Positions 13,686-52,396 of a DNA stretch of 61,021 nt are shown here, one piece after another. Position 1 is the first letter of the stretch; each line of letters starts with the position of its first letter. Origin of the DNA: an uncultured delta proteobacterium (GTDB taxonomy: Bacteria > Desulfobacterota > WTBG01 > CAIYCZ01); contig CAWDOY010000037.1 in assembly GCA_963803975.1 (NCBI GenBank), forward strand, positions 1 to 61,021, read 5' to 3'. A program made the position numbers and the translations under genes. The notes beneath the pieces are model-generated. The model saw nothing but the letters and a program-made list of their open reading frames with translations. It was not told the origin of the DNA and searched no databases.

Positions 13686-14603
13686 TTACGTCTGATAAAA
13701 CTTTATCCCCCGGTGGATCACCTCTTTTATCCGCTGCTCCTTCAGGAGTATTTCTATATGTGTTGCAGCGACGGATTCATGTAACCCCAGGGATGAGCTG
13801 ATATCACTCATTGCACAGGGGCGCCGCTTGATGAGCTGTATAATTGCTCCCTTGATGTCATCTACGACAGCATTATGACGGTCGCTGCGAAATTCTTCGA
13901 TTATTTCCGCTTTTTCACCAAAAAGGACTTTTGCGAGTTCAAGTGTCTCCATGAGGGCCGGTTCTATGTTACGCTCTGCTGCGGGACGGAAAACAGAGTT
14001 TATCTGTATTTTATCCGGGCTGATGTCCTGGATGGCGGCAGCAATTTTTTTCAGTTCATCCATTGAATCATTTATTCCTTTTACAATCATCACTTCAAGC
14101 CAGAGCTGCCCGCGAAATTCCTTCCTCAATAATTTCAAGCCTTCTACCATCTGCTCTACCGTCAAATCCGGGTGAGGACGGTTAAGCCGGGCAAACACGT
14201 CAGGGCTTACCGCGTCAAGGGAAGGCACAATGACGTTGGCCTCAATGACATCGCGCCGTACTTCGGGCAGATGGAACAGCGTACCGTTGGTTAATACTGC
14301 CACCGGAGTTGACGTCATGTCTTTGATGCGGCCTATCATCTCTCCCAGCGCAGAATTGAGCGTTGGCTCGCCGGAACCGGAAAAAGTTATAAAATCAATC
14401 TTTTCCTCCTTAGCAAGGATACTTCTCAAATCATCAAGAATTGCCTGAGGCGCGATCCATTGCTTGCGCTCCAGGGTTTTCACGGAGGTCCTGCCAACCT
14501 GGCAATAGACACAGTTGAGCGTGCACACTTTAAAAGGTACCGCATCAATACCGAGCGAATAGCCAAGTCTGCGGGATGGCACCGGGCCGAAAATATGACT
14601 CAT
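13686..14603 (-). CDS. Radical SAM protein (COG0731, TYW1-related Fe-S oxidoreductase) with C-terminal HTH-like region
   Basis: MSHIFGPVPSRRLGYSLG, CTLNCVYC, FSGSGEPTL; AGGAGG RBS before ATG 14603. Confidence 0.88.
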   Translation of the reverse strand: MSHIFGPVPSRRLGYSLGIDAVPFKVCTLNCVYCQVGRTSVKTLERKQWIAPQAILDDLRSILAKEEKIDFITFSGSGEPTLNSALGEMIGRIKDMTSTPVAVLTNGTLFHLPEVRRDVIEANVIVPSLDAVSPDVFARLNRPHPDLTVEQMVEGLKLLRKEFRGQLWLEVMIVKGINDSMDELKKIAAAIQDISPDKIQINSVFRPAAERNIEPALMETLELAKVLFGEKAEIIEEFRSDRHNAVVDDIKGAIIQLIKRRPCAMSDISSSLGLHESVAATHIEILLKEQRIKEVIHRGIKFYQT

Positions 14604-14627: not shown

Positions 14628-14723
14628 TGTCAGAAGACAGAATACAGAGGGCAGACAGCGGATGATGAGATTACCTGCTTGTTTCATCTTTTCTATTTTC
14701 TGTCTCTGTTGTCTGTTTTTTCT
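14628..14723. repeat. Heptamer-periodic inverted repeat
   Basis: CAGAAGA CAGAATA CAGAGGG CAGA ... TCTATTT TCTGTCT CTGTTGT CTGTTTT. Confidence 0.6.
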
Positions 14724-15280
14724 CTTCTTGCTTCTGCGTTTTACTTCTCTCATAAATCTCTCTTTTATGTCAACTGGTGTATGTGGAATAATAGGGACCT
14801 CTTCAGTTTTAGTATCTGTTTCCGCTATGACGATCAAGCTCTGTTTTAGAAAATAATTGCATTGTCCTGCGCAATGCAGCAATGGTTTTAACTCTCCTGA
14901 CTGTCAGATTACCAGCACCTTGCGCAATTTTCATTAAATCTGTCTTACCGGCAGTAGCAGGTGGGCTGGTTGCCGGTACTGCCGTACACTTTATTATCCG
15001 CAATGATGAGACAGTAATTGGCAGGTGCATAGCGGGCAATCGTGGCAAGGCTGCCCAGATTCATTAAAACTGAACCATCGCCATCTATCACATAGACTCT
15101 TCTTTTCTGACTGCACGCAAGCCCCAGCCCGATTGAACTGGCAAGCCCCATGGAACCGAGCATGTAAAAATTCCGCGAGCTGTCCTGCAGCATGTACAGC
15201 TCGCGGCTGGGAATGCCGACATTAACCACGATAAGTCCGTCACAGCGGGCAATCTCCCGAATAACCTCACTTCGTCTCAT
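14700..15280 (-). CDS. comE: Sulfopyruvate decarboxylase beta subunit (2 frameshifts; 3' end uncertain)
   Basis: [33 protein letters not shown] motif GDGSVLMN...DN..YGSTGNQ, later TDLMKIA and IKERFM. Confidence 0.85.
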
Positions 15281-15776
15281 CCCAGAGTCCTCGTGACAAA
15301 AATGCAGCATTGATTTGAGATTTTTTATAAGTTTCTTTTATACAGCGGGCAAGCCTGGGGAAGTCGCGTGAAGAGCGAATATATATATAATTGATATCCA
15401 GTGTTTCAAGCAGGCGCGGCGCAGCCTCTCCCATGGGGATTTGTGCTGATATTTTTTCTCCCGGACTTCCCCGGTGGCTCATAAGGAGGAATAGCGGCAG
15501 CTTATACAGGCGGGTGAGAGACATGAGCGCGTTGATGGTATTTCCCAGACCGGAATTTTGCATGAGCAGAAGCGGCTTTTTACCGGCAAGCGCTGCCCCT
15601 GCAGCAATTCCCACACCCTCTTCTTCCCGGCAGACCGGGATGTGCTGCACCGGGTGCTGCTCAATTTCCCTGAGCAGCCCTGCAAGCATGTTACAGGGCA
15701 GGCTCAGAATCGGCGCTATGCCTTCTTTGAGCAGCAGTTTGACAATAGCGCTATCTGCCGGATGAGGCTGCCGCAT
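15267..15776 (-). CDS. comD: Sulfopyruvate decarboxylase alpha subunit
   Basis: [42 protein letters not shown]; overlaps comB stop and comE start. Confidence 0.88.
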
Positions 15777-16414
15777 TCCTGATCGTTTTCCCGTCATAAT
15801 AAGGAATTATATCATATATATTAACCCGGGCAATAAAATCAACATCGTCGTGGAATCCTATGGTGTGGAGATGCCGGGCGGCGGATGATTCCTGAATAAA
15901 ATGGGTGATCAGCTGCTCATCAAAGGGAGCATGCAGGAGACGCGCATGCAGCGCTATGGCAACGGCAAGATCTTCGGCAACACCGTGTTCTCCGCCAACG
16001 GCAATAATAGCGACATCTTTCCCCATGACCTGCGCGGCCACTGCCCTGAGATTGAGGCTTGAGCAGATCCATGCCCGGGGAAGTTTGAGAAGGAGCGGAA
16101 CCATGTTGCTTGTTTTAAACGCCATACGTTTAAACGGCTTCTGTTTCATCCGCTGCAGAAGTTCAACCGGGGAGTTCCCCAGGTCATAACCGGAAAGTTT
16201 TACTCCGCCGGCCTCACCGGCAATGACCATGCCCTGGTCTCTGAAAGTAAAACGCTTCCTCATCACGTGCCACGGGGGTTATTTCCTCAACGCCGCATGA
16301 CAGGGCAGTCACAATAGTGCTTGAAGCTCTAAGGTTATCAATGACAACCGGAGTTTCTGCCGGCAAAAGCTTATCAGCAGCTTCTCTGCCGATGCTTATT
16401 CTACAGCTTCCCAA
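15751..16414 (-). CDS. comB: 2-phosphosulfolactate phosphatase (frameshift near 16250)
   Basis: VVIDNLRASSTIVTAL, AGE.GG....YDLGNSP, TSN, ED; overlaps comA stop. Confidence 0.88.
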
Positions 16415-17174
16415 ACGTGTCTCCCCGAATGCCCCGCCTGAGCGTCTCCAGCGGGATCACATCATCAGGCCTGATATTGCCCAGATTTACATCAGGTCCG
16501 AAATGGAGAACGAGATAGGTCTGCTGACTTTTCTCAGGAGCTTCAAACATAATCTTTTCGCTGCCTATCTCCCGCACCAGCGACTGTGCAATATCTTCCT
16601 TAACGCCCCCGGTATCATCATAAATGCCCAGGCTTTTCCCGGCCTCGCGCGCTTCAATTATCACGCGTGATGCTCCGGCACTGAGGTCACTTCGTGCTTC
16701 TGCAATGCGCTCCTGAAGCGACAGTTTGTTGTCCTCGAGCGGTTCTTTTTTGCCTACTTCAGAAATCACGGTGAACCCCTTTTCCCGGGCGCACCTGATT
16801 GCCTCTGCTTTCTGTTCAGCGCTCAAGGAAATAACCCCGTTTGAGATCTCAATCAGATTAAAACCAATGTCACGGGCATAATTATAAAATGCTTCGGTTT
16901 TACTCTGCTGGTAGGCAATTTCGAAAAATGTCCCGCCGTTGCATACGGCAATATCATGTTTTTTGTAAAGGCTCACTTTATTGCGAATGAACTTCTCTGA
17001 AAACAACCGGGGCGTGCCCCAGCCCAGTTTTATGATGTCTATATACGGTGCTGCCTCCATAAGGTCTTCGGCCTGATGCAGTCCCAGCCCTTTATCAAGC
17101 ACCATGGTAAGCCCCTTGGCTCGCGGTTTCTCAGAACGCGCCAGAAGGTCTATTATCTCAAAAGCCTTTTTCAC
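16401..17174 (-). CDS. comA: Phosphosulfolactate synthase
   Basis: GLTMVLDKG, IKLGWGT, GGT.FE, IEISNG, SEVGKK, IEARE, FEAP, VNLGNI, LETLRRGIRGDTFG; intact, GTG start with GAGG RBS. Confidence 0.95.
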   Translation of the reverse strand: MKKAFEIIDLLARSEKPRAKGLTMVLDKGLGLHQAEDLMEAAPYIDIIKLGWGTPRLFSEKFIRNKVSLYKKHDIAVCNGGTFFEIAYQQSKTEAFYNYARDIGFNLIEISNGVISLSAEQKAEAIRCAREKGFTVISEVGKKEPLEDNKLSLQERIAEARSDLSAGASRVIIEAREAGKSLGIYDDTGGVKEDIAQSLVREIGSEKIMFEAPEKSQQTYLVLHFGPDVNLGNIRPDDVIPLETLRRGIRGDTFGKL

Positions 17175-17209: not shown

Positions 17210-17288
17210 GTGAAATGTGGAAAGTGTAAAGTGAAAGGTAGTTGATGGTGATCTTTTCACTGTGCCCTTTTCACCTTTCACCTTTTAC
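17210..17288. repeat. Heptamer-periodic inverted repeat
   Basis: GTGAAAT GTGGAAA GTGTAAA GTGAAAG ... TTTTCAC ... TTTTCAC CTTTCAC CTTTTAC between queH and comA. Confidence 0.7.
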
Positions 17289-17830
17289 TAAACAGGCACC
17301 CGCAGTATTTCTGCCGATACAGTCCATACTGTCTGCTCAATTCACAGCTTTTGCGGTATCCGTTGTCCTGTTTGAAATCTTCGGCAAGAAAATGAATATT
17401 ATATTTTTTCGCCGCTTCGCTGCCCGATACGGTTGACAGCCTGCGTGTCCTTATGCGGGCTGATGCTCAGGGTTGTGCTAAATGCTTTAAAACCATGCTC
17501 TACCGCAACCAGGGCTGTTTTTTGCAGGCGCATGGCAAAGCAGACTTCGCAGCGCTTCCCCCCCTCTGGTTGCTCCTCTAAGCCGGCTACCAGCTCCAGC
17601 CATTCCTGGTTGTCATAACGGCCGCTGATAAGTTCAATATCCCTGATGCGGCAGAACGTTTCCAGTGCTGTGAGGCGATTCAGGTATTCTTCTTCCGGCT
17701 GGATATTGGGATTATAAAAAAATGCCGTTACCCGGTAATCCCGCGAGAGCAGTTCGATAACCTGTGTTGCGCAGGGACCGCAGCAGGCGTGAAGAAGCAG
17801 CTTCTCCGTGTTAATCTCGGCTGAGCACAT
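17278..17830 (-). CDS. queH: Epoxyqueuosine reductase QueH (DUF208), frameshift near 17405
   Basis: LLLHACCGPC, FYNPNIQP, EGGKRCEVC, STTLSISPHK; C-terminus LYRQKYCGCLFS in another frame. Confidence 0.92.
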
Positions 17831-17879: not shown

Positions 17880-18811
17880 CTATATGAACATCATGCGGCC
17901 GGCCAGATTCCGGTATTTAAAAATCTTCATGCCCGCCAGCATCGGCTCCAGGTGCATCTGAAAAGCCTGTGAGATCTCTGCATGAGCGGCAAAACCGCAC
18001 AGCGCACAATTAACCGCACCGCGGTTTTTCACGTAGCAGCCCGTATTGATTTGTCCATCAGGCTCAACGTTCGCAATCATCCAGTCCTCACATCGCCAGC
18101 TGTTATTCCGCAACGCCTCAAGACATGTCCCTGAATTTAAAATAGGATACCCTTGCCGTTTCAGCTGCAGCAACTGGGATAATACGTTATTTTTCTGCTC
18201 CGATGAAAGGCACAGGGCTGTGTCGCCATCATACGGATAATGGAACTGTATGGTAAAGCCCTTTACCCTGGAGGAGAAATATTTTACCAGGTCGCAATAT
18301 TCTGATGATTGATGGTGTTAATGGTTATATTTGCCAGCACGTTCGGATGCGGAGACTGTTCTATATGCTGCACAATACGTTCGAATGCTGCGACCCCGTA
18401 TCTGCGCATGAGCATCCTTGAGGCCATCAATACTTACCCAGAGGACATCGGTTGGGATGTCAAGAGGGAATGTCCCATTGGTGACCAGGCCGACACTGAA
18501 AAAATATTTTTTTGCCTCCCTCACCACATCGTAGATGGTTTGGCATGATCTTTCCAGAGAAATGGTTCGCCACCCTCAAGAATAAGAATGCGCACGCCCT
18601 TATCCTGCAGGGTTTTAAAAATAGGTGACGATTGTTTCAAAGGGTAATCGGCGTGGGTTCTGGCTTTCGACCAGAATGGGCAGTGCCGGCAGCGGAAATT
18701 GCACTCGTGGGTAATTTTAAAACCTGCGAGAATTGGCCTCCGCCTGCCAAAAACCCTGCACTGAACATAGTAATCAAAAAAATATGCAGGCCAGAAATTT
18801 TTTAAAATCAC
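17880..18811 (-). CDS. Radical SAM protein with Cys-rich C-terminal domain (several frameshifts)
   Basis: CNFRCRHC, EGGEP, VTNG, VSIDG; C-terminal RCEDW...GCY...NCALCG. Confidence 0.82.
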
Positions 18812-20901: not shown

Positions 20902-22062
20902 TTATTTCATCTTAATCGTAATCTCGCTGCTCTTTGCTCCCTTGGCAATGTGGGAGGTATACGTTGCCGTTGCAATCTTTTCCGCTTTTGCTGCTTTCAT
21001 CACATTGTTCACAAAATCCTGATCCATTTTAGCCAGCACCTGATTGTATCCTGCGGGTGCCTGCAGCATCGCTCCCACTTCCACGAAAGGATCAGCAGCA
21101 GCAGCAAGGGTGATACTGTCCTTGCCGGTGGCTGTTACGCTGTAGGCGCAATACTTCTGCTTGTGGCAATAGCTTATAATGTCCGCTATATCTTTCAGGG
21201 TCTTTGCCTTTCCGATTTCAAGGGCGAGTTTTGCGTCTTTGACCCACATTGACGGAAATGTATTCCACAGTTCCAGATAGATATCCTGTGCTTTGCCTTT
21301 TACATAGGTGTTGAGCTGAAGCCAGGCAAGAAAATCAACGGCAAAAAATCCCAGGAATGATCCGGGGCCCTGTTCTTCCACCGTTCTCTTCTGTTTTTTC
21401 AGTACATACAGCACCGGCTCCTGATTGCCGATCTCAAGGTCGACAAAGCGGTTGTCAACTTCGGGGAGGGGCCGGTCAGGATCAGCCTCACGCGTCCGCA
21501 ATACGATCTGGCAGGCGCACGCAGCGCCGTCGCGGCATCTGCCCGAGGGCAATTCCACCAGGATGTCCTCCTTCAGCCCGGCCTTTTTTGCATCTTCAAT
21601 CAGCGCCCACAGATAGACATAGGTGAGATAGACTTCCTGGCGGTAATAGTCATGACGCTTATACGTATTATCAGCAGGGCCGTATGCGGGGTTTGCGCAC
21701 CACAGCACGTGTCCTACATGCTCATTCTTCGTGCTTCTGCGGGTAACATAGAGCGCAGGAACGCCGATAAAGCAATCCTCCACTATTCTCCCGAGCGTGG
21801 GCAGATCCTTGACTTCCTTGAGGCCGAATTTCTGCATAGCTCCCTGAAACGACATGTGCGCCAGCGCCGCCCAGACATTACCGTAGTACTTTAAACCATC
21901 CTCTTCTCCCAGGGCCGGTTTGAATGTCCGCCAAATATAATAAACATGGCCGAACAGGGACCGCAGGGCTGCAACAGTTACATCCTTGTTACTCATTTTC
22001 AGAGCTTTTGCGTGCTTCTCCATAAAGGGAAGAAACGGTGATACTGCTTTCTTACTTGCCAT
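20902..22062 (-). CDS. Hypothetical protein with two related halves (DUF6125 / ATC-hydrolase-like), Cys-containing
   Basis: Intact 386-aa ORF from ATG 22062 with AAGGAG RBS and own terminator; family assignment tentative. Confidence 0.75.
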   Translation of the reverse strand: MASKKAVSPFLPFMEKHAKALKMSNKDVTVAALRSLFGHVYYIWRTFKPALGEEDGLKYYGNVWAALAHMSFQGAMQKFGLKEVKDLPTLGRIVEDCFIGVPALYVTRRSTKNEHVGHVLWCANPAYGPADNTYKRHDYYRQEVYLTYVYLWALIEDAKKAGLKEDILVELPSGRCRDGAACACQIVLRTREADPDRPLPEVDNRFVDLEIGNQEPVLYVLKKQKRTVEEQGPGSFLGFFAVDFLAWLQLNTYVKGKAQDIYLELWNTFPSMWVKDAKLALEIGKAKTLKDIADIISYCHKQKYCAYSVTATGKDSITLAAAADPFVEVGAMLQAPAGYNQVLAKMDQDFVNNVMKAAKAEKIATATYTSHIAKGAKSSEITIKMK

Positions 22063-22431
22063 AAAACGTTCTCCTTTCGATAGTCGGTATTGATGGGAAC
22101 CCTTTGTTTTATTATTGTCCAAAATACCAGCGTGCCTGTTCTGATACAGTTCTCCCGATCAGGGCAACAAGGCGATCTTGGACGAGCAACTGAAACCCGG
22201 TATGCTGATTGCCTTCTTTGTGCTATATAATAGAATGTGTTTACAAGAAAGTACAACTATTTGTCAATAAAAATGACTTGCATTTTAATTAATAAGAATA
22301 AATATTTTTCATTTTTACCCGCTCTGATGGTATGGTTCGAACAATAAGAAAGTTTTTGCAACAGAGCAGTCATCCGCGACACGTGCGCTGGAAGCTGGAA
22401 AAACGCTACTATTCACAGAATACATCGAACG

Positions 22432-44571: not shown

Positions 44572-46059
44572 CTACAATCCTCCCCAGAGTATCAGACCAA
44601 TTAACAGTGATGCGGCAATCCCCAGGGGAATGGTCCAGCGCAGTATTGCCCCTTCCTGGCCGAGAGCGCCGCACATGGGCGTGGCAATAGCAATCTTGAA
44701 CGGCGATGAGATTGACCCGATGGATGCGCCGACTGCCAATCCTGCGGCAAGCCAGGTGGCCGATACTCCCAGCAGCGCTGCAGCCTGCACCTGGAGCTTG
44801 CCGAAAAGCATGATGGATGCAACGCCATACCCGGTAAGAAATGTCCCCACCCAGCCGAGCAGCGGTATAAAAAGCGGATAGAACGTGCCGGTATAAATCT
44901 GCAGGCCATGAGCAAGTATCCAGGGGATGTTGCATGCCTGCTCCATGCGGGTAAAATTATCTGCATAGCCGGAGTAGGCTATAATCTGACCCATGGCTCC
45001 GAACAGCCCCATGGCAACACACGCCCGCCACCCTTTTGCCAGGCTTATATGCATTACCTCATACAGGGTGACCTTCGGCACTTTAAGCAGCGCTGCAGCA
45101 AGACCAAAGGCAGCAAACAAATATAGATATGCTGAAAACAGCGGCTGCAGGGTGATGGGGTGCACGGGGATGACCTGTACGGTAATGCACAAACGCCGGG
45201 CAGTAAGCTCCCGTAATGGGGGCACAATATTTATCAGGAATAATGCTGTGAGCATGAAAGCAAAGGGCGCCAAATCGCGCAGTATCCACCGGGTCAGGCC
45301 CATCTGCCGCGGCCCGGCCAGAATCAAAACAACAATCACAGACAGCCCTCCCAGCATCCCCGATACCGGCACCCCGGCATAGACCACAGCACCGAGTGCT
45401 GCAACACTCACGCACAGCCCGCAGCCGATCGACAGCAGAAGCTGGCGGGTGACAGGCGCAAAGCGCGGCAGAAATAATGGCACACAGGCGGCCATGGCAG
45501 CAGTGGCCGGTATTGAAAGCCACCCGGCTGCAACTGCCAGCTCATATACCGGCATATCCGTTACCAGTGACAGCACCGTCACAATAATTCCTGCCATCTC
45601 AAGCGTCATAAGTCCGGCATAGCCGACAATAGAGAGTGCTGCAGAGCCTGCCGGTGATACACCGGCAGAGCGCAGCATGGGTGCCACCACCGGCTCGGCA
45701 ATTACGCTTGCCCCTTCCATGAAATTTGCCACGCCAAAGGTTATGAGAAGACTCCGGTGCAGGGCATCGCGCACACCGCCCATGAACCAGGTAACAATGC
45801 GGGAGAGAGAACCGGTTGCCTGCAGAAGAGTGGACAGCATGATGCCGGCAAACACCACCAGCAGAAGCGGCAGCGTGGTTACAATACCGTCAAGGGCTGA
45901 GAGGAGCGCAACCGTTAGAGAGGTCTTAAAAAAGATAACAACATAGAGCAGGGTAAACAAAGAGCCGCAGATAGAGAGGGTGAACGCCGGCATTCTGAAG
46001 AAGACCGCTAGCACGGTCAGCAGCAGAACCGGCGTCCAGCAGAGAAGAAAAGAGAGCAT
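44572..46059 (-). CDS. L-lactate permease (LctP) family transporter
   Basis: Polytopic membrane protein; F.EGA, PLLGW.G.FLTG, S..MLF..LQ, G.ISSP.KI. Confidence 0.8.
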   Translation of the reverse strand: MLSFLLCWTPVLLLTVLAVFFRMPAFTLSICGSLFTLLYVVIFFKTSLTVALLSALDGIVTTLPLLLVVFAGIMLSTLLQATGSLSRIVTWFMGGVRDALHRSLLITFGVANFMEGASVIAEPVVAPMLRSAGVSPAGSAALSIVGYAGLMTLEMAGIIVTVLSLVTDMPVYELAVAAGWLSIPATAAMAACVPLFLPRFAPVTRQLLLSIGCGLCVSVAALGAVVYAGVPVSGMLGGLSVIVVLILAGPRQMGLTRWILRDLAPFAFMLTALFLINIVPPLRELTARRLCITVQVIPVHPITLQPLFSAYLYLFAAFGLAAALLKVPKVTLYEVMHISLAKGWRACVAMGLFGAMGQIIAYSGYADNFTRMEQACNIPWILAHGLQIYTGTFYPLFIPLLGWVGTFLTGYGVASIMLFGKLQVQAAALLGVSATWLAAGLAVGASIGSISSPFKIAIATPMCGALGQEGAILRWTIPLGIAASLLIGLILWGGL

Positions 46060-46061
46060 GC

Positions 46062-47681
46062 TTAGAACCGGACGACACGCACTTCTATTATGCCGTCAAT
46101 CCGGGTCAGGTCATCAAGCAGCTGTTTACTGATCGGGCTGTCAACAGAGACAAAGGCGATTGCTTCTCCGCCTGCCTGTCGGCCCAGCTCAAAGGCTGCA
46201 ATATTTATCTGGTTGTCGCCGAGAATGGTGCCCACTTTGCCGATGATTCCGGGGCGGTCAATGTTTCTGAAATAAATGGAAGTGCCTTCAGGAATAATAT
46301 CCAGATGGAACCGGTCAAAGAGAACGACCCGTCCTGATTTGTCTGAGAACACGGTGCCGGCAATGGTCTTTTCCTCCTGGTCAGTCCGCAGGATAAAAAC
46401 GATCAAGTCATTGAACTTGTCATACTGATCGGTCTTTGATTCTGCAACAAGGATGTTGCGGTCCTTTGCCAGGTAGGGGGCGTTGATGAATGAGACATCT
46501 TTTAACGTGACGTCAAAAAAACCTTTCAGCGCGGCCACGGTAAACGGCTGATAGCTCAGCGGCGCGTCAAAAGTGCGCTCGCAGAAGTCCTCCTCGAAAT
46601 TTTTCCCCACCATGATAATTTTAATCTCTTCGGGTCTTCCCTTGGTGAGCTGGCCGGCAAGTTTGCCCATTCTCTGGATAAGGTCAAAATAGCGCTGCAT
46701 GTGCTCCGGGAGCGGCGTCTTCATGAAGGGGATGTTAACGGCATTGGCATAGCCCCTGCCGTTGAGCGCGTCCACAATCTGCTCGGCAATGAGGATAGCC
46801 ACCCCTTCCTGCCCTTCAAAGGTATTGGCCCCGATATGAGGGGTGACAAATACATTTTCCAGATCAAATAATTTGTGGTTCTTTGGCGGCTCTTCTTCAA
46901 ACACGTCAATGCCCGCGGCAAACACCTTGCCCGATTTAAGTGCCTCGTAGAGGTCATTCTCGCTGACAATGCCGCCGCGAGCGCAGTTGATCACGATGAC
47001 CCCGTCTTTCATGAGCCCGATCTCTTTGGCCGTAATCATGTTCTGCGTTTCAGTGGTGAGCGGGGTGTGAACGGTGAGCACGTCGGTTTCCCGAAGCACG
47101 TCTTCCATCCTGTCGTAAAGCTTCACTCCTATTGCCTCGGCCTTGCTCTTTTTTATGTACGGGTCATAGGCGATAACCTTCATGCCGAAGCTCTTGGCAC
47201 GGACAGCGACATTGCCGCCAATTCTTCCCAGACCGATAATGCCCAGCGTCTTGTTATAGAGCTGAAAGCCCATGAACTTCTTCCGGTCCCATTTGCCGGA
47301 CTTCAGCGATTCATTGGCCAGAGGAATTTTACGCGCCGCAGCAAGCATAATGCCCATGGTGAGTTCGGTTGCAGCAAAGGTGTTGCCGGTGGGCGCGTTC
47401 ATGACAATGATGCCTTTTTTACTGGCAGCCTCAATGTCTACATTGTCGAGACCCACCCCTGCCCGCCCGATAATTTTGAGTTTGCCCGGGTTCTCTATGA
47501 GATCAGCAGTGACTGCTGTGCCGCTGCGGGTGATGATGGCATCGTATTCGCCGATAATTTTTTTCAGCTCATCAATTTTGATCCCGGGCCGCACATCAAC
47601 GTCAATAGAGCCGTCGCGCTTCAGGATGTCGAGGCCCTCCTGAGAAATATTGTCAGTAACCATCACCTTAAACTGTGCCAT
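46062..47681 (-). CDS. serA: D-3-phosphoglycerate dehydrogenase, long (ASB+ACT) form
   Basis: GRAGVGLDNVD, GLGRIG, INCARGG, TPHIGA, ACT motif N.DRPG.IG. Confidence 0.93.
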   Translation of the reverse strand: MAQFKVMVTDNISQEGLDILKRDGSIDVDVRPGIKIDELKKIIGEYDAIITRSGTAVTADLIENPGKLKIIGRAGVGLDNVDIEAASKKGIIVMNAPTGNTFAATELTMGIMLAAARKIPLANESLKSGKWDRKKFMGFQLYNKTLGIIGLGRIGGNVAVRAKSFGMKVIAYDPYIKKSKAEAIGVKLYDRMEDVLRETDVLTVHTPLTTETQNMITAKEIGLMKDGVIVINCARGGIVSENDLYEALKSGKVFAAGIDVFEEEPPKNHKLFDLENVFVTPHIGANTFEGQEGVAILIAEQIVDALNGRGYANAVNIPFMKTPLPEHMQRYFDLIQRMGKLAGQLTKGRPEEIKIIMVGKNFEEDFCERTFDAPLSYQPFTVAALKGFFDVTLKDVSFINAPYLAKDRNILVAESKTDQYDKFNDLIVFILRTDQEEKTIAGTVFSDKSGRVVLFDRFHLDIIPEGTSIYFRNIDRPGIIGKVGTILGDNQINIAAFELGRQAGGEAIAFVSVDSPISKQLLDDLTRIDGIIEVRVVRF

Positions 47682-47756
47682 GAAAATCACCTCTTTTAGC
47701 TATAATCTCTTATCTGTTGCCTTTTGCCGGTACTGTTTTGCAATCTTTGGGAAGTT

Positions 47757-47786
47757 AATCCTGCGAATCTGCGTTTATCTGCGTCC
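47757..47786. repeat. 30-bp dispersed repeat, copy 2
   Basis: AATCCTGCGAATCTGCGTTTATCTGCGTCC. Confidence 0.8.
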
Positions 47787-47789
47787 TGA

Positions 47790-48953
47790 TTAAATTACGC
47801 GGACCATCAGCACGCCCTCTATTTTCATCAGCTTCTCAATCAGGTCATCGTTTATGTTGTTATCAACATCTATGATGTTGTAGGCAAAGTCGCCCCTGCT
47901 CTTGTTGAGCATGTCAGCGATGTTTATCTTTTTCCCGGCAAGCACCGGCGTAATCTGCCCGATCATGTTCGGGACATTTCTGTTGGCGATGATGAGACGC
48001 CGTGCACCGGACTGAGGGAGAATGCACTCCGGGAAATTAACTGAATTCTTAATATTTCCTCTCTCCAGAAAATCCATGAGCTGCTGCACCGCCATGACCG
48101 CGCAGTTCTCTTCTGACTCAGGAGTTGATGCCCCGAGATGCGGTATGGGGATGACATTGTCCATTTTCAACAGCTCTTCATCCGGAAAATCCGTCACATA
48201 AAAGGCCACCACCCCCTGGCTGATTGCTTCCTGCAAATCTTTGTTATTCACCAGCCCGCCGCGCGCGAAGTTTAGGAGGCGCACGCCCTTCTTCATGAGC
48301 GCCAGCTTATCCCTGTTGATCATGCTCTTGGTCTTGTCATTCAGGGGCACATGCAGGGTGATGTAGTCGGATTCCGCAAAAAGGCTGTCAAGGCTCAGTG
48401 CCCGCCTTACCGTGCGGGAGAGGCCCCATGCAGAGTCCACCGTCAGAAACGGGTCATAGCCGATTACTTCCATGCCAAGGGATTCCGCGTCATTTGCCAC
48501 CATTACGCCAATGGCACCAAGGCCCACCACGCCAAGCTTCTTGCCCTTGATCTCCGGGCCGTCAAACTGGGACTTTCCGTCCTCGACCAGCTTGGGCACA
48601 GCGTCACCCTTGCCGATCAGGCCTTTTGCCCAGGTGATGCCCTGGTACACTTTGCGGGATGACATGAACAGCGCCATCAGCACCAGCTCCTTCACCGCAT
48701 TGGCATTGGCACCCGGCGTATTAAAAACAACAATGCCGCGCTCCGAGCACTTGCTTATGGGAATGTTATTCACCCCTGCCCCGGCCCGGGCAATCGCTTT
48801 TAAAGACGGGGGCAGCTCCATCTCAAGCATGTTAAAGCTTCGTACCAGCACGGCGTCGGGACCGACTATTTCCGAGGCATATTCGAAATTATCCGGCGGC
48901 AGCAGGCGCATCCCGTTGGGAGATATCTTGTTAAGTGTCTGGATTTTAAACAT
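47790..48953 (-). CDS. serA: D-3-phosphoglycerate dehydrogenase, short (ACT-only) form
   Basis: ARAGAGVNNIP, NTPGANANAVKEL, GLGAIG, NFARG, PHLGAST, NSVNFP. Confidence 0.92.
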   Translation of the reverse strand: MFKIQTLNKISPNGMRLLPPDNFEYASEIVGPDAVLVRSFNMLEMELPPSLKAIARAGAGVNNIPISKCSERGIVVFNTPGANANAVKELVLMALFMSSRKVYQGITWAKGLIGKGDAVPKLVEDGKSQFDGPEIKGKKLGVVGLGAIGVMVANDAESLGMEVIGYDPFLTVDSAWGLSRTVRRALSLDSLFAESDYITLHVPLNDKTKSMINRDKLALMKKGVRLLNFARGGLVNNKDLQEAISQGVVAFYVTDFPDEELLKMDNVIPIPHLGASTPESEENCAVMAVQQLMDFLERGNIKNSVNFPECILPQSGARRLIIANRNVPNMIGQITPVLAGKKINIADMLNKSRGDFAYNIIDVDNNINDDLIEKLMKIEGVLMVRVI

Positions 48954-48972
48954 TGCAACCCTCCACAAATAT

Positions 48973-49050
48973 AAAGTTATGGAGTTGAAGAGTGACGAGT
49001 TGAGGAGTTATTGAACTTCTAAACTCCGCAACTCCTTCACTCCCGAACTC
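48973..49050. repeat. Octamer-periodic inverted repeat
   Basis: GGAGTTGA AGAGTGAC GAGTTGAG GAGTT ... AACTTCTA AACTCCGC AACTCCTT CACTCCCG AACTC. Confidence 0.75.
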
Positions 49051-49057
49051 ACTACTA

Positions 49058-50140
49058 TTATTTATTTTCCATTTCAAACTTCTTCATGAAGTCAACCAGC
49101 TTCTGCACCCCTTCGACCGGCATGGAGTTGTAGATGCTGGCGCGCATGCCGCCCACTGATCGGTGTCCGGAAAGCTGTACCAGACCCTGTTTTCCTGCCT
49201 CAGCGATGAACTTTTTATCAAGCTCCTCATTGCCGCTGACAAACGGAATGTTCATGAGCGAGCGGAATTCCCGGGGAACCGGCGACTTGAACATGGCAGA
49301 CGCATCGAGAAAATCATACAGAAGATTTGCTTTGGTTTTGTTGATCCCCTCCATCGCCGGGATGCCGCCCAAATCTTTCAGCCACTCAAACACGAGCATT
49401 GCCATATAAATGCTGTAGGTCGGCGGGGTGTTGAACAGTGATTTATCTTTCACGTGGGTCGCGTAGTTCATCATGGTGGGGGTAATGTCCATGGCTTTTC
49501 CGACCAGGTCATCGCGGATGATAACAACCGTGACGCCGGCAGGGCCGATATTTTTCTGCGCGCCGGCAAAGATAACACCGAATTTGCTCACATCCATGAC
49601 CTCGGAGAGTATGTGTGATGACATGTCCGCCACCAGGGGCACGCTGCCGGTATCGGGATAGACCGGATAGCGGGTGCCTTCGATGGTGTTGTTGGAGCAG
49701 ATGTAGAAGAAATCAGCATCAGGGGTGAATGTGCTCTTGTCAAGCCGGGGGATGTAGGAATGTTTTTTATCCTCTGATGATGCCAGGATATTGACCGCGC
49801 CGTAGCGCTTTGATTCCGGGATCGCTTTCTTGGTCCACTCCCCGGTGTGGACAAAATCAGCCTTCTTGCTCTTTGAAAACAGGTTCATCGGTATCATGGA
49901 GAATTGCAGCGATGCGCCGCCCTGCAGAAAGAGCACCTGGTAATTGGCGGGGATGCTCATGAGCTCGCGCAGCAGGGCCTCTGCCTTGTTAATAATGGCT
50001 TCAAATGCCTTGGAGCGGTGGCTCATCTCCATCACCGACATTCCCGCATTCGGGTATTCCACCAGTTCGCTTGCCGCTTTTTTAAGAACCGGCTCCGGCA
50101 GACAGGCCGGGCCTGCAGAAAAGTTATACACTCGTGCCAT
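49058..50140 (-). CDS. serC: Phosphoserine aminotransferase
   Basis: NFSAGP, MEMSHRS, QGGASLQF, GAQKNIGPAG, NTPP, GHRSVGGMRASIYN. Confidence 0.97.
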   Translation of the reverse strand: MARVYNFSAGPACLPEPVLKKAASELVEYPNAGMSVMEMSHRSKAFEAIINKAEALLRELMSIPANYQVLFLQGGASLQFSMIPMNLFSKSKKADFVHTGEWTKKAIPESKRYGAVNILASSEDKKHSYIPRLDKSTFTPDADFFYICSNNTIEGTRYPVYPDTGSVPLVADMSSHILSEVMDVSKFGVIFAGAQKNIGPAGVTVVIIRDDLVGKAMDITPTMMNYATHVKDKSLFNTPPTYSIYMAMLVFEWLKDLGGIPAMEGINKTKANLLYDFLDASAMFKSPVPREFRSLMNIPFVSGNEELDKKFIAEAGKQGLVQLSGHRSVGGMRASIYNSMPVEGVQKLVDFMKKFEMENK

Positions 50141-50259
50141 AGGTACCTCCTTATTAATGTGTTAGATCCTGACTTCTAAACGCTAAACAAATATCAGTTA
50201 AATACTATCCTTTTGAAATTTTGGATTTGTTTAGGATTTCTTATTTGCGTATTTAGTAT

Positions 50260-50904
50260 TTACCCATGGTGCTGTTGTTCCATGGTAAACAGCGCGGATA
50301 AGAACCTGAACTCGCCCGCTATATCAAAATTGCTCACATAGACTTTTTCCTTATAGGTTGCATGCAGCGGAACTGATGAGAAGTTCACGATGCCCCGTAT
50401 CCCGCCTTCAACGAGCCGGTCGATAATATCCCGTGAAGCGTGGCCCGGCACGGTTATAACCGCCATCTCTATGCCCTGCTTCCTGATGATGTCAGCCAGC
50501 TCATAGGCGGGATATACCGGTATATGCGTTACCAGAGTTTCAATTTTATTTATGCTTGAGTCAAAGCCTGCTACGATTTTAAAGTTATTGGAAAAAAGTT
50601 TTTCATTCTGCAGGATGGCAGTGCCGAGTTTCCCCAGACCAACCACACAGGCTTTGCGCTCAACATTCAGACCGAGCTTCTCACCAATATGCTTCTTCAG
50701 CTTTGCAATCTCATAGCCTGAACCAACGGTGCCGATTTCCCCGATGTAGCTGATGTCCTTCCGCACGCTATGAGAGCCTACCCAGATTTTTTCACCTATT
50801 TCATTGGAGGAAACAGAGCTTGCGCCATTTCCTTCCAGTTCCTCCAGCAGGCTGTATATTTTACAAAGTCTGCTAATAGATGGTTTGGGGATACGGTTGG
50901 TCAT
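50260..50904 (-). CDS. rex: Redox-sensing transcriptional repressor Rex
   Basis: IP...RL..Y, VSS.E, VRKD.SY.G..G..G.GY, VG.G.LG, GI.NF. Confidence 0.93.
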   Translation of the reverse strand: MTNRIPKPSISRLCKIYSLLEELEGNGASSVSSNEIGEKIWVGSHSVRKDISYIGEIGTVGSGYEIAKLKKHIGEKLGLNVERKACVVGLGKLGTAILQNEKLFSNNFKIVAGFDSSINKIETLVTHIPVYPAYELADIIRKQGIEMAVITVPGHASRDIIDRLVEGGIRGIVNFSSVPLHATYKEKVYVSNFDIAGEFRFLSALFTMEQQHHG

Positions 50905-50940
50905 AGTTCATAGTAATTAATTTAATTTAAAGTTTTCCTA

Positions 50941-50958
50941 TTGTGAAATAATTCACTA
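50941..50958. promoter_or_regulatory. Rex operator 1, overlapping the rex promoter
   Basis: TTGTGAA-ATAA-TTCACTA (1 mismatch to TTGTGAA-N4-TTCACAA); minus-strand TTGACA at 50963-50968. Confidence 0.85.
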
Positions 50959-51045
50959 TTCTTGTCAAGTATATTTAATTAATACCAGTCACATTTCTGA
51001 AGCCCTGTCAAAATTAAAGGTAATATATATTGCCATTAGCAATAT

Positions 51046-51063
51046 CTGTGATATATTTCACAG
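51046..51063. promoter_or_regulatory. Rex operator 2, overlapping the DUF1015 gene promoter
   Basis: CTGTGAT-ATAT-TTCACAG; TTGCCA at 51030 and TATATT at 51052. Confidence 0.75.
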
Positions 51064-51076
51064 ATAAAATCAATAC

Positions 51077-51142
51077 CAGAGACCACAGAATGTCAGACAT
51101 AAGACAATCATCCGTAATGGCTGTCGTCTGACTTCTGTATTC
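51077..51142. repeat. Heptamer-periodic inverted repeat
   Basis: CAGAATG TCAGACA TAAGAC ... GTCGTCT GACTTCT GTATTCT. Confidence 0.5.
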
Positions 51143-51168
51143 TTTATTCTATTTTTTATGGAGGCATC

Positions 51169-52396
51169 ATGGCTGCAATCAAGGAATTCAGGGGGCTGAG
51201 ACCGAAACAGGATATGGTAACCCGCATAGCTGAACTGCCCTATGACGTGGTCAGTTCAGAGGAGGCACGCGATATTGCCAAAGACAATCAATACAGTTTT
51301 TTCCATGTTTCGAAACCGGAGATAGACCTGCCTGACAATGTTAATCTCTATGCTGACATTGTCTATGCAACCGGCAGAATAAATTTCGACAGCTTTATCA
51401 GCCAGGGCATCCTGAAGCAGGATGAAAGCCCCCGTCTCTATCTCTACACCCAGGTTATGCACGGCAGGCAGCAGCACGGTCTGGTAGCCTGCGTGAGCAT
51501 AGATGATTACCTTAACAGCACGGTTAAAAAGCATGAGCTGACCCGCGAGGACAAGGAGCGGGACAGGACCCGGCACATTGAAACATTGCATGCCCAGACC
51601 GGACCGGTATTTCTATTCTATAAAGAGGACCGCTTCAAGAAAGTGCTGTACGAGGAGGCGCTCAGGATTGATCCGGTATATGAATTTACCGCATCTGACG
51701 GCATCCGGCATATACTGCGGATTATTAAGGATGTAAATCTTATTGAGTCCTTCAAGAAGGCATTTGCCAAAGATATCCTCTACATTGCCGACGGCCACCA
51801 CCGCGCTGCTTCAGCAGCCAAAGTCGGTGTGAACCACAGGAAGGAAAATCCCTCCCATAACGGCACTGAGGAATACAACTGGTTTCTTGCCGTCATCTTC
51901 CCCCATGACCAGCTGCAGATCCTTGCCTATAACAAGGTGGTAAAAGATTTAAACGGGCTTTCAAAAGAAGAGTATCTTAATAAAATAGCACAGCACTTTT
52001 CCGTGCAGCAGGCCGGCGTGAAAGTTCCCGAAGCAATCCACCAGTTCTCCATGTACCTTGGACCGCCAGTGGTATTTGCTCACACCGTCATGTGCTATAC
52101 CAAATGACCCCATAGAGAGCCTTGATGTGCAAATACTGCAGAACAAGCTCCTTGATCCGATACTGGGCATCAAGGACCCCCGCACCGACAAGCGCATCGA
52201 TTTTATCGGCGGCATCAGGGGCACACAGGAGCTGGAGAAGCTGGTGGATGCCGGAGAATATCAGGTTGCCTTCTCCATGCATCCCACCACCATCGAGCAA
52301 CTCATACGCGTTGCTGATGCCGGAAAGATTATGCCCCCCAAATCAACCTGGTTTGAGCCAAAACTGAGAAGCGGGCTGGTGGTGCACCTGCTATAA
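51169..52396 (+). CDS. DUF1015 family protein (frameshift near 52060)
   Basis: LPYDVV, KKHELT, YIADGHHR, MPPKSTWFEPKLRSGL. Confidence 0.92.

What the first reader, a model, noticed from the sequence alone, without database searches (positions are those of the whole stretch)
14700..17174. Methanogen-type comA-comB-comD-comE operon (coenzyme M / sulfoacetaldehyde pathway) in a Gram-negative bacterium, lacking comC
Seen: four overlapping genes (comA stop 16401 / comB start 16414; comB stop 15751 / comD start 15776; comD stop 15267 / comE start 15280) on a clearly bacterial contig (pilMNOPQ, der, clpB). Known: in methanogens ComA adds sulfite to PEP, ComB dephosphorylates, ComC oxidises (R)-sulfolactate and ComDE decarboxylate to sulfoacetaldehyde, the CoM precursor. 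The characterised bacterial CoM route (Xanthobacter xcb genes) uses a ComA homologue but not ComB/ComDE. From memory, the ComA termini (KAFE...LETLRRGIRGDTFGKL) and ComE ([14 protein letters not shown]) resemble the methanogen proteins. Inference: a horizontally acquired archaeal-type pathway making CoM or another C2 sulfonate (isethionate, taurine, sulfonolipid head group). No comC or final thiolation gene (COG1900-type) is recognisable in the window, so unknown or remote enzymes are needed.
Basis: partly seen in the sequence, partly recalled or inferred. Interest (0 to 1): 0.85.

Follow-up and report, generated by a model that had tools for sequence, protein, structure and literature searches.

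The report
Bacterial coenzyme M operon without comC
An uncultured bacterium carries a real, conserved archaeal-type operon for four of the genes that build the sulfur cofactor coenzyme M; such genes were already reported for what is probably this lineage, but here the oxidation gene is missing, as it is in several methane- and alkane-cycling archaea, so another enzyme must do that step.

Summary
The comA-comB-comD-comE operon is real. Its three frameshifts are assembly errors: short-read contigs from 4 of 4 runs lack the extra bases, a same-genus genome has the genes intact, and dN/dS is 0.08-0.21. ComE-type genes occur in 29 of 42 genomes of this Desulfobacterota class, directly behind queH wherever flanks were read. 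Archaeal-type CoM genes were already reported for class Ca. Anaeropigmentia (probably this class) as a 'complete' pathway of unknown use, and this scan found the cluster before in another genome. New here: ComC-family genes are missing from this genome and from 20 of 24 ComA-positive kin; no COG1900 gene examined is the MMP16/ComF type. The ComA clade also holds ANME-1 and other Halobacteriota archaea; 10 of 10 such genomes searched lack ComC. One archaeal contig keeps comA-B-C-D-E. Best reading (0.5): the operon makes sulfoacetaldehyde for coenzyme M. A borrowed dehydrogenase, probably malate dehydrogenase, oxidises sulfolactate; the homocysteine enzyme L-ASST or free sulfide adds the thiol. 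L-ASST is in 27 of 30 kin and falls in an assembly gap here. No CoM-using enzyme was found; HdrB and nitrogenase-like reductases do not track the operon. A redox-thiol role is inferred only.

The parts
16401..17174 (-). comA, phosphosulfolactate synthase (257 aa, intact, GTG start)
   Evidence: TIGR03849 312 bits over cut-off 280; best PDB match 1qwg phosphosulfolactate synthase E 2e-65; dN/dS 0.08 against the same-genus copy
15751..16414 (-). comB, 2-phosphosulfolactate phosphatase family, divergent clade (about 220 aa); one extra base near 16240-16247 is an assembly error
   Evidence: PF04029 in both frames; the intact relative scores 97 bits, below all NCBIfam cut-offs; extra base absent
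15267..15776 (-). comD, sulfopyruvate decarboxylase alpha subunit (intact; alternative start at 15797)
   Evidence: TIGR03845 176.5 bits over cut-off 148; TIGR03297 only 94.5 of 312.5
14700..15280 (-). comE, sulfopyruvate decarboxylase beta subunit; extra bases near 14959 and 14842 are assembly errors; the 3' end is approximate because in this assembly its last frame runs on into the radical SAM gene
   Evidence: intact same-genus copy scores TIGR03846 213 bits (cut-off 221.5) versus TIGR03297 148
17278..17830 (-). queH (epoxyqueuosine reductase), the fixed upstream neighbour; one extra base near 17410; probably not part of the pathway
   Evidence: PF02677; directly upstream in all 22 kin genomes whose flanks were read; present in 37 of 42 class genomes including those without comA
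13686..14603 (-). radical SAM gene downstream, neighbour only
   Evidence: PF04055; follows comE in 14 of 25 kin loci; not seen beside the archaeal com clusters read
17880..18811 (-). radical SAM gene (weak PTO1314/DUF3463 similarity) upstream of queH, broken by several single-base errors; neighbour only
   Evidence: present in 10 of 25 kin loci

Best explanation
The operon makes sulfoacetaldehyde for coenzyme M by a version of the archaeal PEP route that has no comC. ComA adds sulfite to PEP; ComB removes the phosphate to give (R)-sulfolactate; ComD+ComE decarboxylate sulfopyruvate. These three steps rest on family membership, not on assays. Sulfite probably comes from the AprAB-like reductase encoded beside a sulfite reductase and cysK elsewhere in the genome (inferred). 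Oxidation of sulfolactate is borrowed from a housekeeping L-2-hydroxyacid dehydrogenase, most likely the NAD malate dehydrogenase (inferred). The thiol is added by the homocysteine enzyme L-ASST (COG1900) acting on a second substrate, or by free sulfide (inferred). With no MCR and no matching CoM-using enzyme, CoM most likely serves as a small redox thiol (weakly inferred).
For: Family calls. Purifying selection on all four genes. ComE-type hit in 29 of 42 class genomes: own genome, f1 3/3, f2 16/17, f4 8/11 (33). The ComA clade (97/98*) joins this class with ANME-1, other Halobacteriota and an archaeal contig. In ANME-1 the same comA-comB pair sits between MMP16 (TIGR03287 over cut-off) and comDE, a CoM cluster. 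Five such genomes have no Ldh_2 and no Ldh_1 over cut-off; five more archaeal ComA genomes have no Ldh_2. So missing comC does not rule out CoM. S1 table of PMC12068725 lists Methanoliparum thermophilum (CheckM 92%) with mcr, comA, comB, comDE and COG1900 but no MMP16, comC or cysteate synthase: the gene set of this class. That paper reports that L-ASST or sulfide may replace MMP16. L-ASST-type genes in 27 of 30 kin. Of 24 ComA-positive genomes, 19 have malate dehydrogenase, 4 have Ldh_2 instead, 1 (79% complete) has neither. E. coli-type gshA/gshB not found. The class III aminotransferases found look like ArgD, BioA and HemL by context. CoM protects Methanosarcina from oxidative stress (PMC12713407).
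Against: No MMP16-type gene was found in this genome or among the kin COG1900 genes examined (one scored, 132 of 364 bits). L-ASST is also in families without comA, so its main job is homocysteine. No gene for L-ASST is in this assembly at all; the gap is inferred. No CoM consumer found: no mcrA; HdrB is missing from 10 of 17 f2 genomes; the URO-D-like genes sit in corrinoid/MtgA-type clusters and score 37 of 235 bits on MtaA/CmuA. The malate dehydrogenase/Ldh_2 exclusivity is probably one event (copies 90-96% identical), and that Ldh_2 lacks two histidines seen in the cluster-borne archaeal ComC. The archaea lacking ComC also lack Ldh_1, so malate dehydrogenase cannot be their substitute; their completeness is not given. 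The comC column of the S1 table is 0 for Methanopyrus kandleri, whose MK0392 is named a ComC homologue in PMC5695019, so it is weak evidence. A thioredoxin-type APS reductase is in only 2 of 5 class genomes at strong scores; ATP sulfurylase was not searched. No metabolite or enzyme data.
Confidence: 0.5

Rival explanations
1. Sulfoacetaldehyde is turned into another C2 sulfonate (taurine, isethionate or sulfoacetate) for a cell-envelope glycan or lipid, by enzymes encoded elsewhere.
For: One class member without comA (G021) has cysteate synthase (over cut-off), comD and comE between an ATP-grasp ligase and an acetyltransferase-like gene plus a membrane protein, which looks like envelope tailoring. 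No MMP16 and no CoM consumer was found. ComA occurs in many bacteria fused to AMP-binding or ATP-grasp domains.
Against: No aminotransferase, reductase, ligase or glycosyltransferase recurs beside the operon in 22 kin genomes or in the metagenome loci with com genes. G021's ComD+E branch apart from the operon clade. The genome's class III aminotransferases look like ArgD, BioA and HemL. The nearest archaeal clusters are CoM clusters.
Confidence: 0.25
2. CoM is made, but by a dedicated unknown sulfolactate dehydrogenase shared with ANME-1 and related archaea, and is used as a carrier in an undescribed CoM-dependent reaction.
For: Ten archaeal genomes of the same ComA clade lack Ldh_2, and five tested lack Ldh_1, so an unknown enzyme must exist there. 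The genome encodes GlcD/GlcF-like and LhgD-like dehydrogenases. Retention across three families suggests a steady need.
Against: No shared extra gene lies in the clusters. No full-length FMN_dh member in 5 genomes. The two partner systems tested do not co-occur with comA.
Confidence: 0.15
3. The operon is a sulfite sink or makes sulfolactate as its main product; ComDE has little flux or another 2-oxoacid substrate.
For: dsrA is absent from 4 of 4 ComA-positive genomes tested and present in the one ComA-negative genome. No oxidation gene is linked. The ComE copy scores just under the TIGR03846 cut-off.
Against: comD and comE are under purifying selection and stay attached to comA-comB across the families. 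Their sister in the tree comes from a full comABCDE operon.
Confidence: 0.08
4. Artefact, decayed operon or phosphonate pathway.
For: Three frameshifts in this assembly; the best PDB matches of ComD and ComE are phosphonopyruvate decarboxylase subunits.
Against: Frameshifts are assembly errors. No sulfopyruvate decarboxylase entry appeared among the PDB hits, and the sulfopyruvate models score far higher. Phosphonate-type decarboxylases from the phylum branch outside.
Confidence: 0.02

Closest known systems
CoM biosynthesis genes of Desulfobacterota class Ca. Anaeropigmentia (bioRxiv 10.1101/2021.03.22.436540; passages and sections 13 and 39 read, supplements closed)
   Same: Archaeal-like PEP-dependent com genes across a Desulfobacterota class, no alkene-degradation genes, function unknown. 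Probably the same class: similar genome size and GC, nitrogenase-like reductases, HdrABC-MvhD. Identity of the class was not tested directly.
   Different: The preprint calls the pathway complete. Here ComC-family genes are missing from 20 of 24 ComA-positive genomes and none is in the operon. Its Table S3, which would show what was counted as comC, could not be read.
PEP-dependent CoM pathway of class I methanogens, ComA-ComB-ComC-ComDE-ComF/MMP16 (PMC9457059 introduction, PMC5695019 passages, PMC12068725 passages)
   Same: ComA, ComB and split ComD/ComE families.
   Different: No ComC, no MMP16, no MCR; ComB is a divergent clade below all NCBIfam cut-offs.
CoM clusters of ANME-1 and other Halobacteriota archaea (MMP16-comA-comB-[comC]-fused comDE-ABC transporter)
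   Same: Same ComA clade (57-62% identity) and ComB clade, same comA/comB overlap, comC usually missing.
   Different: Their ComDE is fused and branches apart; ANME-1 clusters carry MMP16 and an ABC transporter; the S1 table lists mcr genes for most such genomes.
Archaeal contig L221: cysH-comA-comB-comC-comD-comE-DMT transporter
   Same: Same order, split comD/comE, ComD+E sister to the bacterial class (SH-aLRT 93, unstarred).
   Different: It keeps an Ldh_2 comC and a sulfite-supply gene; host unnamed (archaeal by its TFE gene).
Xanthobacter xcbA-E CoM route (PMC9457059, first fifth of the text read)
   Same: Starts with a ComA homologue.
   Different: Uses sulfoacrylate and aspartase/fumarase-family enzymes, not ComB or ComDE; tied to alkene metabolism.

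Membership tests
ComA phosphosulfolactate synthase (TIGR03849) | Score over the curated cut-off; full-length match to the solved enzyme | tested here: met
   312 vs 280 bits; residues 19-257 align to 1qwg
ComB 2-phosphosulfolactate phosphatase | PF04029 membership and NCBIfam equivalog cut-off | tested here: inconclusive
   PF04029 over gathering score; the intact relative reaches 80-97 bits against cut-offs of 175-235; the archaeal L221 copy is also below cut-off
Sulfopyruvate decarboxylase ComD | TIGR03845 over cut-off and better than phosphonopyruvate decarboxylase | tested here: met
   176.5 vs 148; TIGR03297 94.5
Sulfopyruvate decarboxylase ComE | TIGR03846 over cut-off | tested here: inconclusive
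   same-genus intact copy 213 vs 221.5; 11 of 42 class genomes pass; groups apart from phosphonate-type decarboxylases
Archaeal PEP-dependent CoM pathway | ComC (Ldh_2 sulfolactate dehydrogenase) | tested here: not met
   0 hits in this genome; over cut-off in 5 of 31 genomes, none beside the operon
Archaeal PEP-dependent CoM pathway | ComF/MMP16 (TIGR03287) | tested here: not met
   no tblastn hit with ANME-1 MMP16 in this genome; one kin COG1900 protein scored 132 of 364 bits; TIGR03287 itself was not searched across the class
Archaeal PEP-dependent CoM pathway | A COG1900 sulfur-insertion enzyme of any type | tested here: inconclusive
   27 of 30 kin have it; absent from this assembly together with larE and mnmA
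Archaeal PEP-dependent CoM pathway | Host with methyl/alkyl-CoM reductase | tested here: not met
   no mcrA
Archaeal PEP-dependent CoM pathway | CoM produced; enzymes active on the named substrates | not testable with these tools
   needs assays and LC-MS
Phosphonopyruvate decarboxylase | TIGR03297 cut-off and phosphonate gene context | tested here: not met
   scores 94.5 and 148 of 312.5; neighbours are comA and comB
Xanthobacter Xcb route | xcbC/xcbD/xcbE beside the ComA homologue | tested here: not met
   no such genes in the operon in any kin locus read; not searched genome-wide

The most novel reading that the evidence does not exclude
Three families of non-sulfate-reducing Desulfobacterota, without MCR or E. 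coli-type glutathione synthesis, make coenzyme M as their main small thiol. They use an archaeal operon that lost comC and MMP16 and is completed by housekeeping enzymes. ANME-1 and related alkane-cycling archaea run the same comC-less route with a sulfolactate dehydrogenase of a family not yet identified.
Probability: 0.3. Interest if true: 0.7.

Novelty: new variant of a known kind. Interest (0 to 1): 0.42.

Why it matters
Coenzyme M is treated as a marker of methanogens, anaerobic alkane oxidisers and alkene degraders. If these sediment bacteria make it, com genes and CoM cannot be read as such markers, and the bacteria could supply CoM to archaea that need it. The missing oxidation step is a defined, cheap test that also bears on ANME-1 and related archaea, whose CoM clusters mostly lack comC. 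The bare presence of the genes in this lineage is probably already published, which limits the surprise.

Tried and rejected
Decayed operon or chimera: rejected. Phosphonate pathway: rejected. Link to nitrogenase-like reductases: rejected; absent from 4 near-complete ComA-positive genomes and present in 2 ComA-negative ones. CoM as substrate of HdrABC: rejected as a general purpose; HdrB is missing from 10 of 17 f2 genomes and present in 7 of 8 f3 genomes. MtaA-type CoM methyltransferase: not supported. queH as a pathway member: not supported; it is in 37 of 42 class genomes, though the families without comA carry a different subtype in another context. Flanking radical SAM genes: not constant. 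FMN-dependent lactate-type dehydrogenase: only partial, weak matches in 5 of 5 genomes. D-2-hydroxyacid dehydrogenases: the strong hit in all 5 genomes is SerA-sized, uninformative. YkgF/YkgG-type lactate dehydrogenase: no hit. The Fe-S/CCG gene upstream of MMP16 in three ANME-1 clusters scores best as HdrB/HdrC-like. The ABC transporter at C1:144-147 kb resembles the ANME-1 cluster transporter, but it sits in an unrelated cluster. Promoter and terminator scans were at chance level. Direction of transfer: the clade is a polytomy; one bacterial origin is not rejected (p-AU 0.33). Trees left out rows under 70-75% coverage (13 of 45 chosen for the ComD+E tree). RNA run X18 has contigs over parts of all four genes, but contigs cannot show transcription. 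The primary paper on MJ0490/MJ1425 was not held; that malate dehydrogenases turn over sulfopyruvate is partly recalled. No structure or complex prediction was run. Literature: 8 searches; none showed a paper on the comC-less form, but subscription journals are not covered.
Full report
Observation. The four genes lie on the minus strand at the stated places. comA passes TIGR03849 and comD passes TIGR03845; comB matches PF04029 and comE matches TIGR03846 in pieces. The window is a whole contig (C37) of a 4.25 Mb, 57-contig genome rated 98% complete. Its other genes are bacterial. Operon GC is 0.50, like the genome.

Frameshifts. A same-genus contig (L001, 91% identity) has intact comB and comE. 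The window differs by one extra base near 16244, 14959 and 14842, and similar single-base insertions break many neighbours. Contigs from 4 of 4 public runs lack these three bases and bridge each gene junction. dN/dS against L001 is 0.08 (comA), 0.21 (part of comB), 0.18 (comD) and 0.14 (part of comE). The operon is intact and under selection.

Distribution. Record titles of the nearest relatives say Thermodesulfobacteriota or delta proteobacterium. ComA was found in 24 of 31 genomes sampled. A ComE-type gene was found in 29 of 42 class genomes: own, f1 3/3, f2 16/17, f4 8/11, f3 1/8, f5 0/1, f6 0/1. The f3 hit (G021) is a different cluster with cysteate synthase. Among 291 phylum genomes outside the class the best ComE score was 177 bits, against 205-232 for the nine other class members in that search; the best outside hits sit in other contexts, several phosphonate-like. 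In 25 loci from 22 genomes the core was queH-comA-comB-comD-comE, as far as each contig reached, with no extra enzyme inside. The metagenome loci of this type agree. dsrA was absent from 4 ComA-positive genomes and present in the one ComA-negative genome tested.

The missing comC. Ldh_2 is not found in this genome and passes the cut-off in 5 of 31 genomes, away from the operon. Of 24 ComA-positive genomes, 19 have a bacterial malate dehydrogenase (one of them just under the cut-off), 4 have Ldh_2 and no malate dehydrogenase, and 1, 79% complete, has neither. This fits a need for one of the two. It is weak: the Ldh_2 copies compared are 90-96% identical, and they lack two histidines present in the cluster-borne archaeal ComC. 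PMC5695019 (passages) says ComC enzymes also reduce oxaloacetate and that MJ1425 was chosen over the second malate dehydrogenase MJ0490 on kinetics. That Ldh_1-type enzymes turn over sulfopyruvate is my recall. GlcD/GlcF-like and LhgD-like proteins are other candidates.

The last step. PF01837 is not found in this assembly but is in 27 of 30 kin. The one kin protein scored is not MMP16 (132 of 364 bits), and the loci read have a NIL-ferredoxin gene next to it, the L-ASST pattern. In the three other f1 genomes it follows larE-mnmA. None of these genes has a hit in this assembly, so a gap is likely. PMC12068725 (passages) shows MMP16 is the main CoM synthase in Methanosarcina and that sulfide or L-ASST may compensate.

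Archaeal relatives. ComA occurs in 17 of 68 genomes of the ANME-1 order and in other Halobacteriota. Most ANME-1 clusters read run MMP16-comA-comB, often followed by fused comDE and an ABC transporter; Ldh_2 is inserted in two genomes. Five genomes without it have no Ldh_2 and no Ldh_1 over cut-off anywhere; five more lack Ldh_2. Their completeness is not given. In the S1 table of PMC12068725 (rows read), most ANME-1 rows have cysteate synthase and the seven rows with comA do not; 5 of 5 Methanoliparia rows have comA and comB; Methanoliparum thermophilum has mcr and COG1900 but no MMP16. The comC column misses M. kandleri, so I lean on my own searches. One metagenome contig, archaeal by its TFE gene, has cysH-comA-comB-comC-comD-comE.

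Trees. ComA from this class, ANME-1, other Halobacteriota and L221 form one clade (97/98*, 41 rows) with an unresolved base. One bacterial origin is not rejected (p-AU 0.33). Joined ComD+E rows place L221 as sister to the class (SH-aLRT 93), with the fused archaeal ComDE and phosphonate-type enzymes apart (13 of 45 chosen rows dropped for coverage). The simplest history is an old gain of an archaeal comABCDE operon followed by loss of comC. The direction is inferred from one bacterial class against three archaeal groups and is not shown.

Use of the product. No mcrA. HdrB and nitrogenase-like reductases do not track comA. The two URO-D-like genes lie in corrinoid, MtgA-like clusters. An AprAB-like reductase, a sulfite reductase-like gene and cysK form a cluster at C53:110865-115234 that could supply sulfite. 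E. coli gshA and gshB have no hit; other thiol pathways were not tested. Class III aminotransferase hits look like ArgD, BioA and HemL. PMC12713407 (passages) supports an antioxidant role for CoM in Methanosarcina. A redox-thiol role here is the simplest guess and is untested.

What is known. bioRxiv 10.1101/2021.03.22.436540 (passages and sections 13 and 39; supplements closed) reports a complete archaeal-like PEP-dependent CoM pathway in all genomes of class Ca. Anaeropigmentia, finds comABCDE orthologies together in 14 bacterial genomes, and leaves the function open. This genome fits that class in size, GC, nitrogenase-like reductases and Hdr-Mvh genes, but I did not test the assignment. 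Eight literature searches showed nothing on the comC-less form; subscription journals are not covered. PMC9457059 (first fifth) and PMC3787637 (passages) gave background only.

Verdict. A real, conserved operon whose presence in this lineage is probably known. The new part is that it lacks comC and, as far as tested, MMP16, that archaea of the same ComA clade also lack comC, and that candidate stand-ins can be named and tested. It works like the first steps of the archaeal CoM pathway but fails membership of the full pathway. Interest 0.42.

Noticed in passing
L119 (G021:C262:880-6100): A class member without comA has ATP-grasp ligase, cysteate synthase (over cut-off), comD, comE, an acetyltransferase-like gene and a membrane protein in one run: a possible sulfonate tailoring locus for a glycan or lipid.
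   Followed up: partly
L221:27-5478: Archaeal contig with a complete cysH-comA-comB-comC-comD-comE operon followed by a DMT-type transporter and no MMP16 in the locus.
   Followed up: partly
L154-L166, L009-L021: In the ANME-1 order 17 of 68 genomes have comA; in the published table comA rows and cysteate-synthase rows exclude each other, suggesting one route replaced the other.
   Followed up: partly
L048-L052: A divergent Ldh_2 protein (NNQG in place of the usual SHG motif), 90-96% identical among copies compared, is found in genomes of two genera that lack malate dehydrogenase.
   Followed up: partly
window 17278-17830; L286-L293: queH beside comA is a different subtype (43-60% to each other's clade members, 33-37% to the rest) from the queH of families without comA, which sits near purF/nadB or lpxC-like genes.
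   Followed up: partly
P0149, P0152, P0174, P0221, P0231, P0232, P0258: ComA domains fused to AMP-binding/carrier-protein modules, ATP sulfurylase or ATP-grasp domains; P0123, P0125-P0128, P0135 are ComA-ComB fusions.
   Followed up: no
L028:4806-7017: In a spirochaete, comA is followed by a lactate racemase (LarA) family gene, a possible sulfolactate racemase.
   Followed up: no
L183 (G000:C1:140700-150600): Cluster with an Fe-S/CCG oxidoreductase, an ABC transporter whose ATPase is about 55% identical to that of ANME-1 CoM clusters, a radical SAM gene, a GNAT and an AIR-synthase-like gene.
   Followed up: no
window 44572-52107: Class V aminotransferase, two D-2-hydroxyacid dehydrogenases (one SerA-type with ACT domain), lactate permease, Rex-like regulator and DUF1015: a serine-biosynthesis-like cluster with two dehydrogenases.
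   Followed up: no
window 20902-22122: Conserved protein of about 390 aa with no Pfam or NCBIfam match, kept upstream of the operon in the f1 loci read.
   Followed up: no
whole window: Frequent single-base insertions split many genes (surE, M23 peptidase, queH, radical SAM genes); apparent pseudogenes in this assembly need short-read checks.
   Followed up: partly
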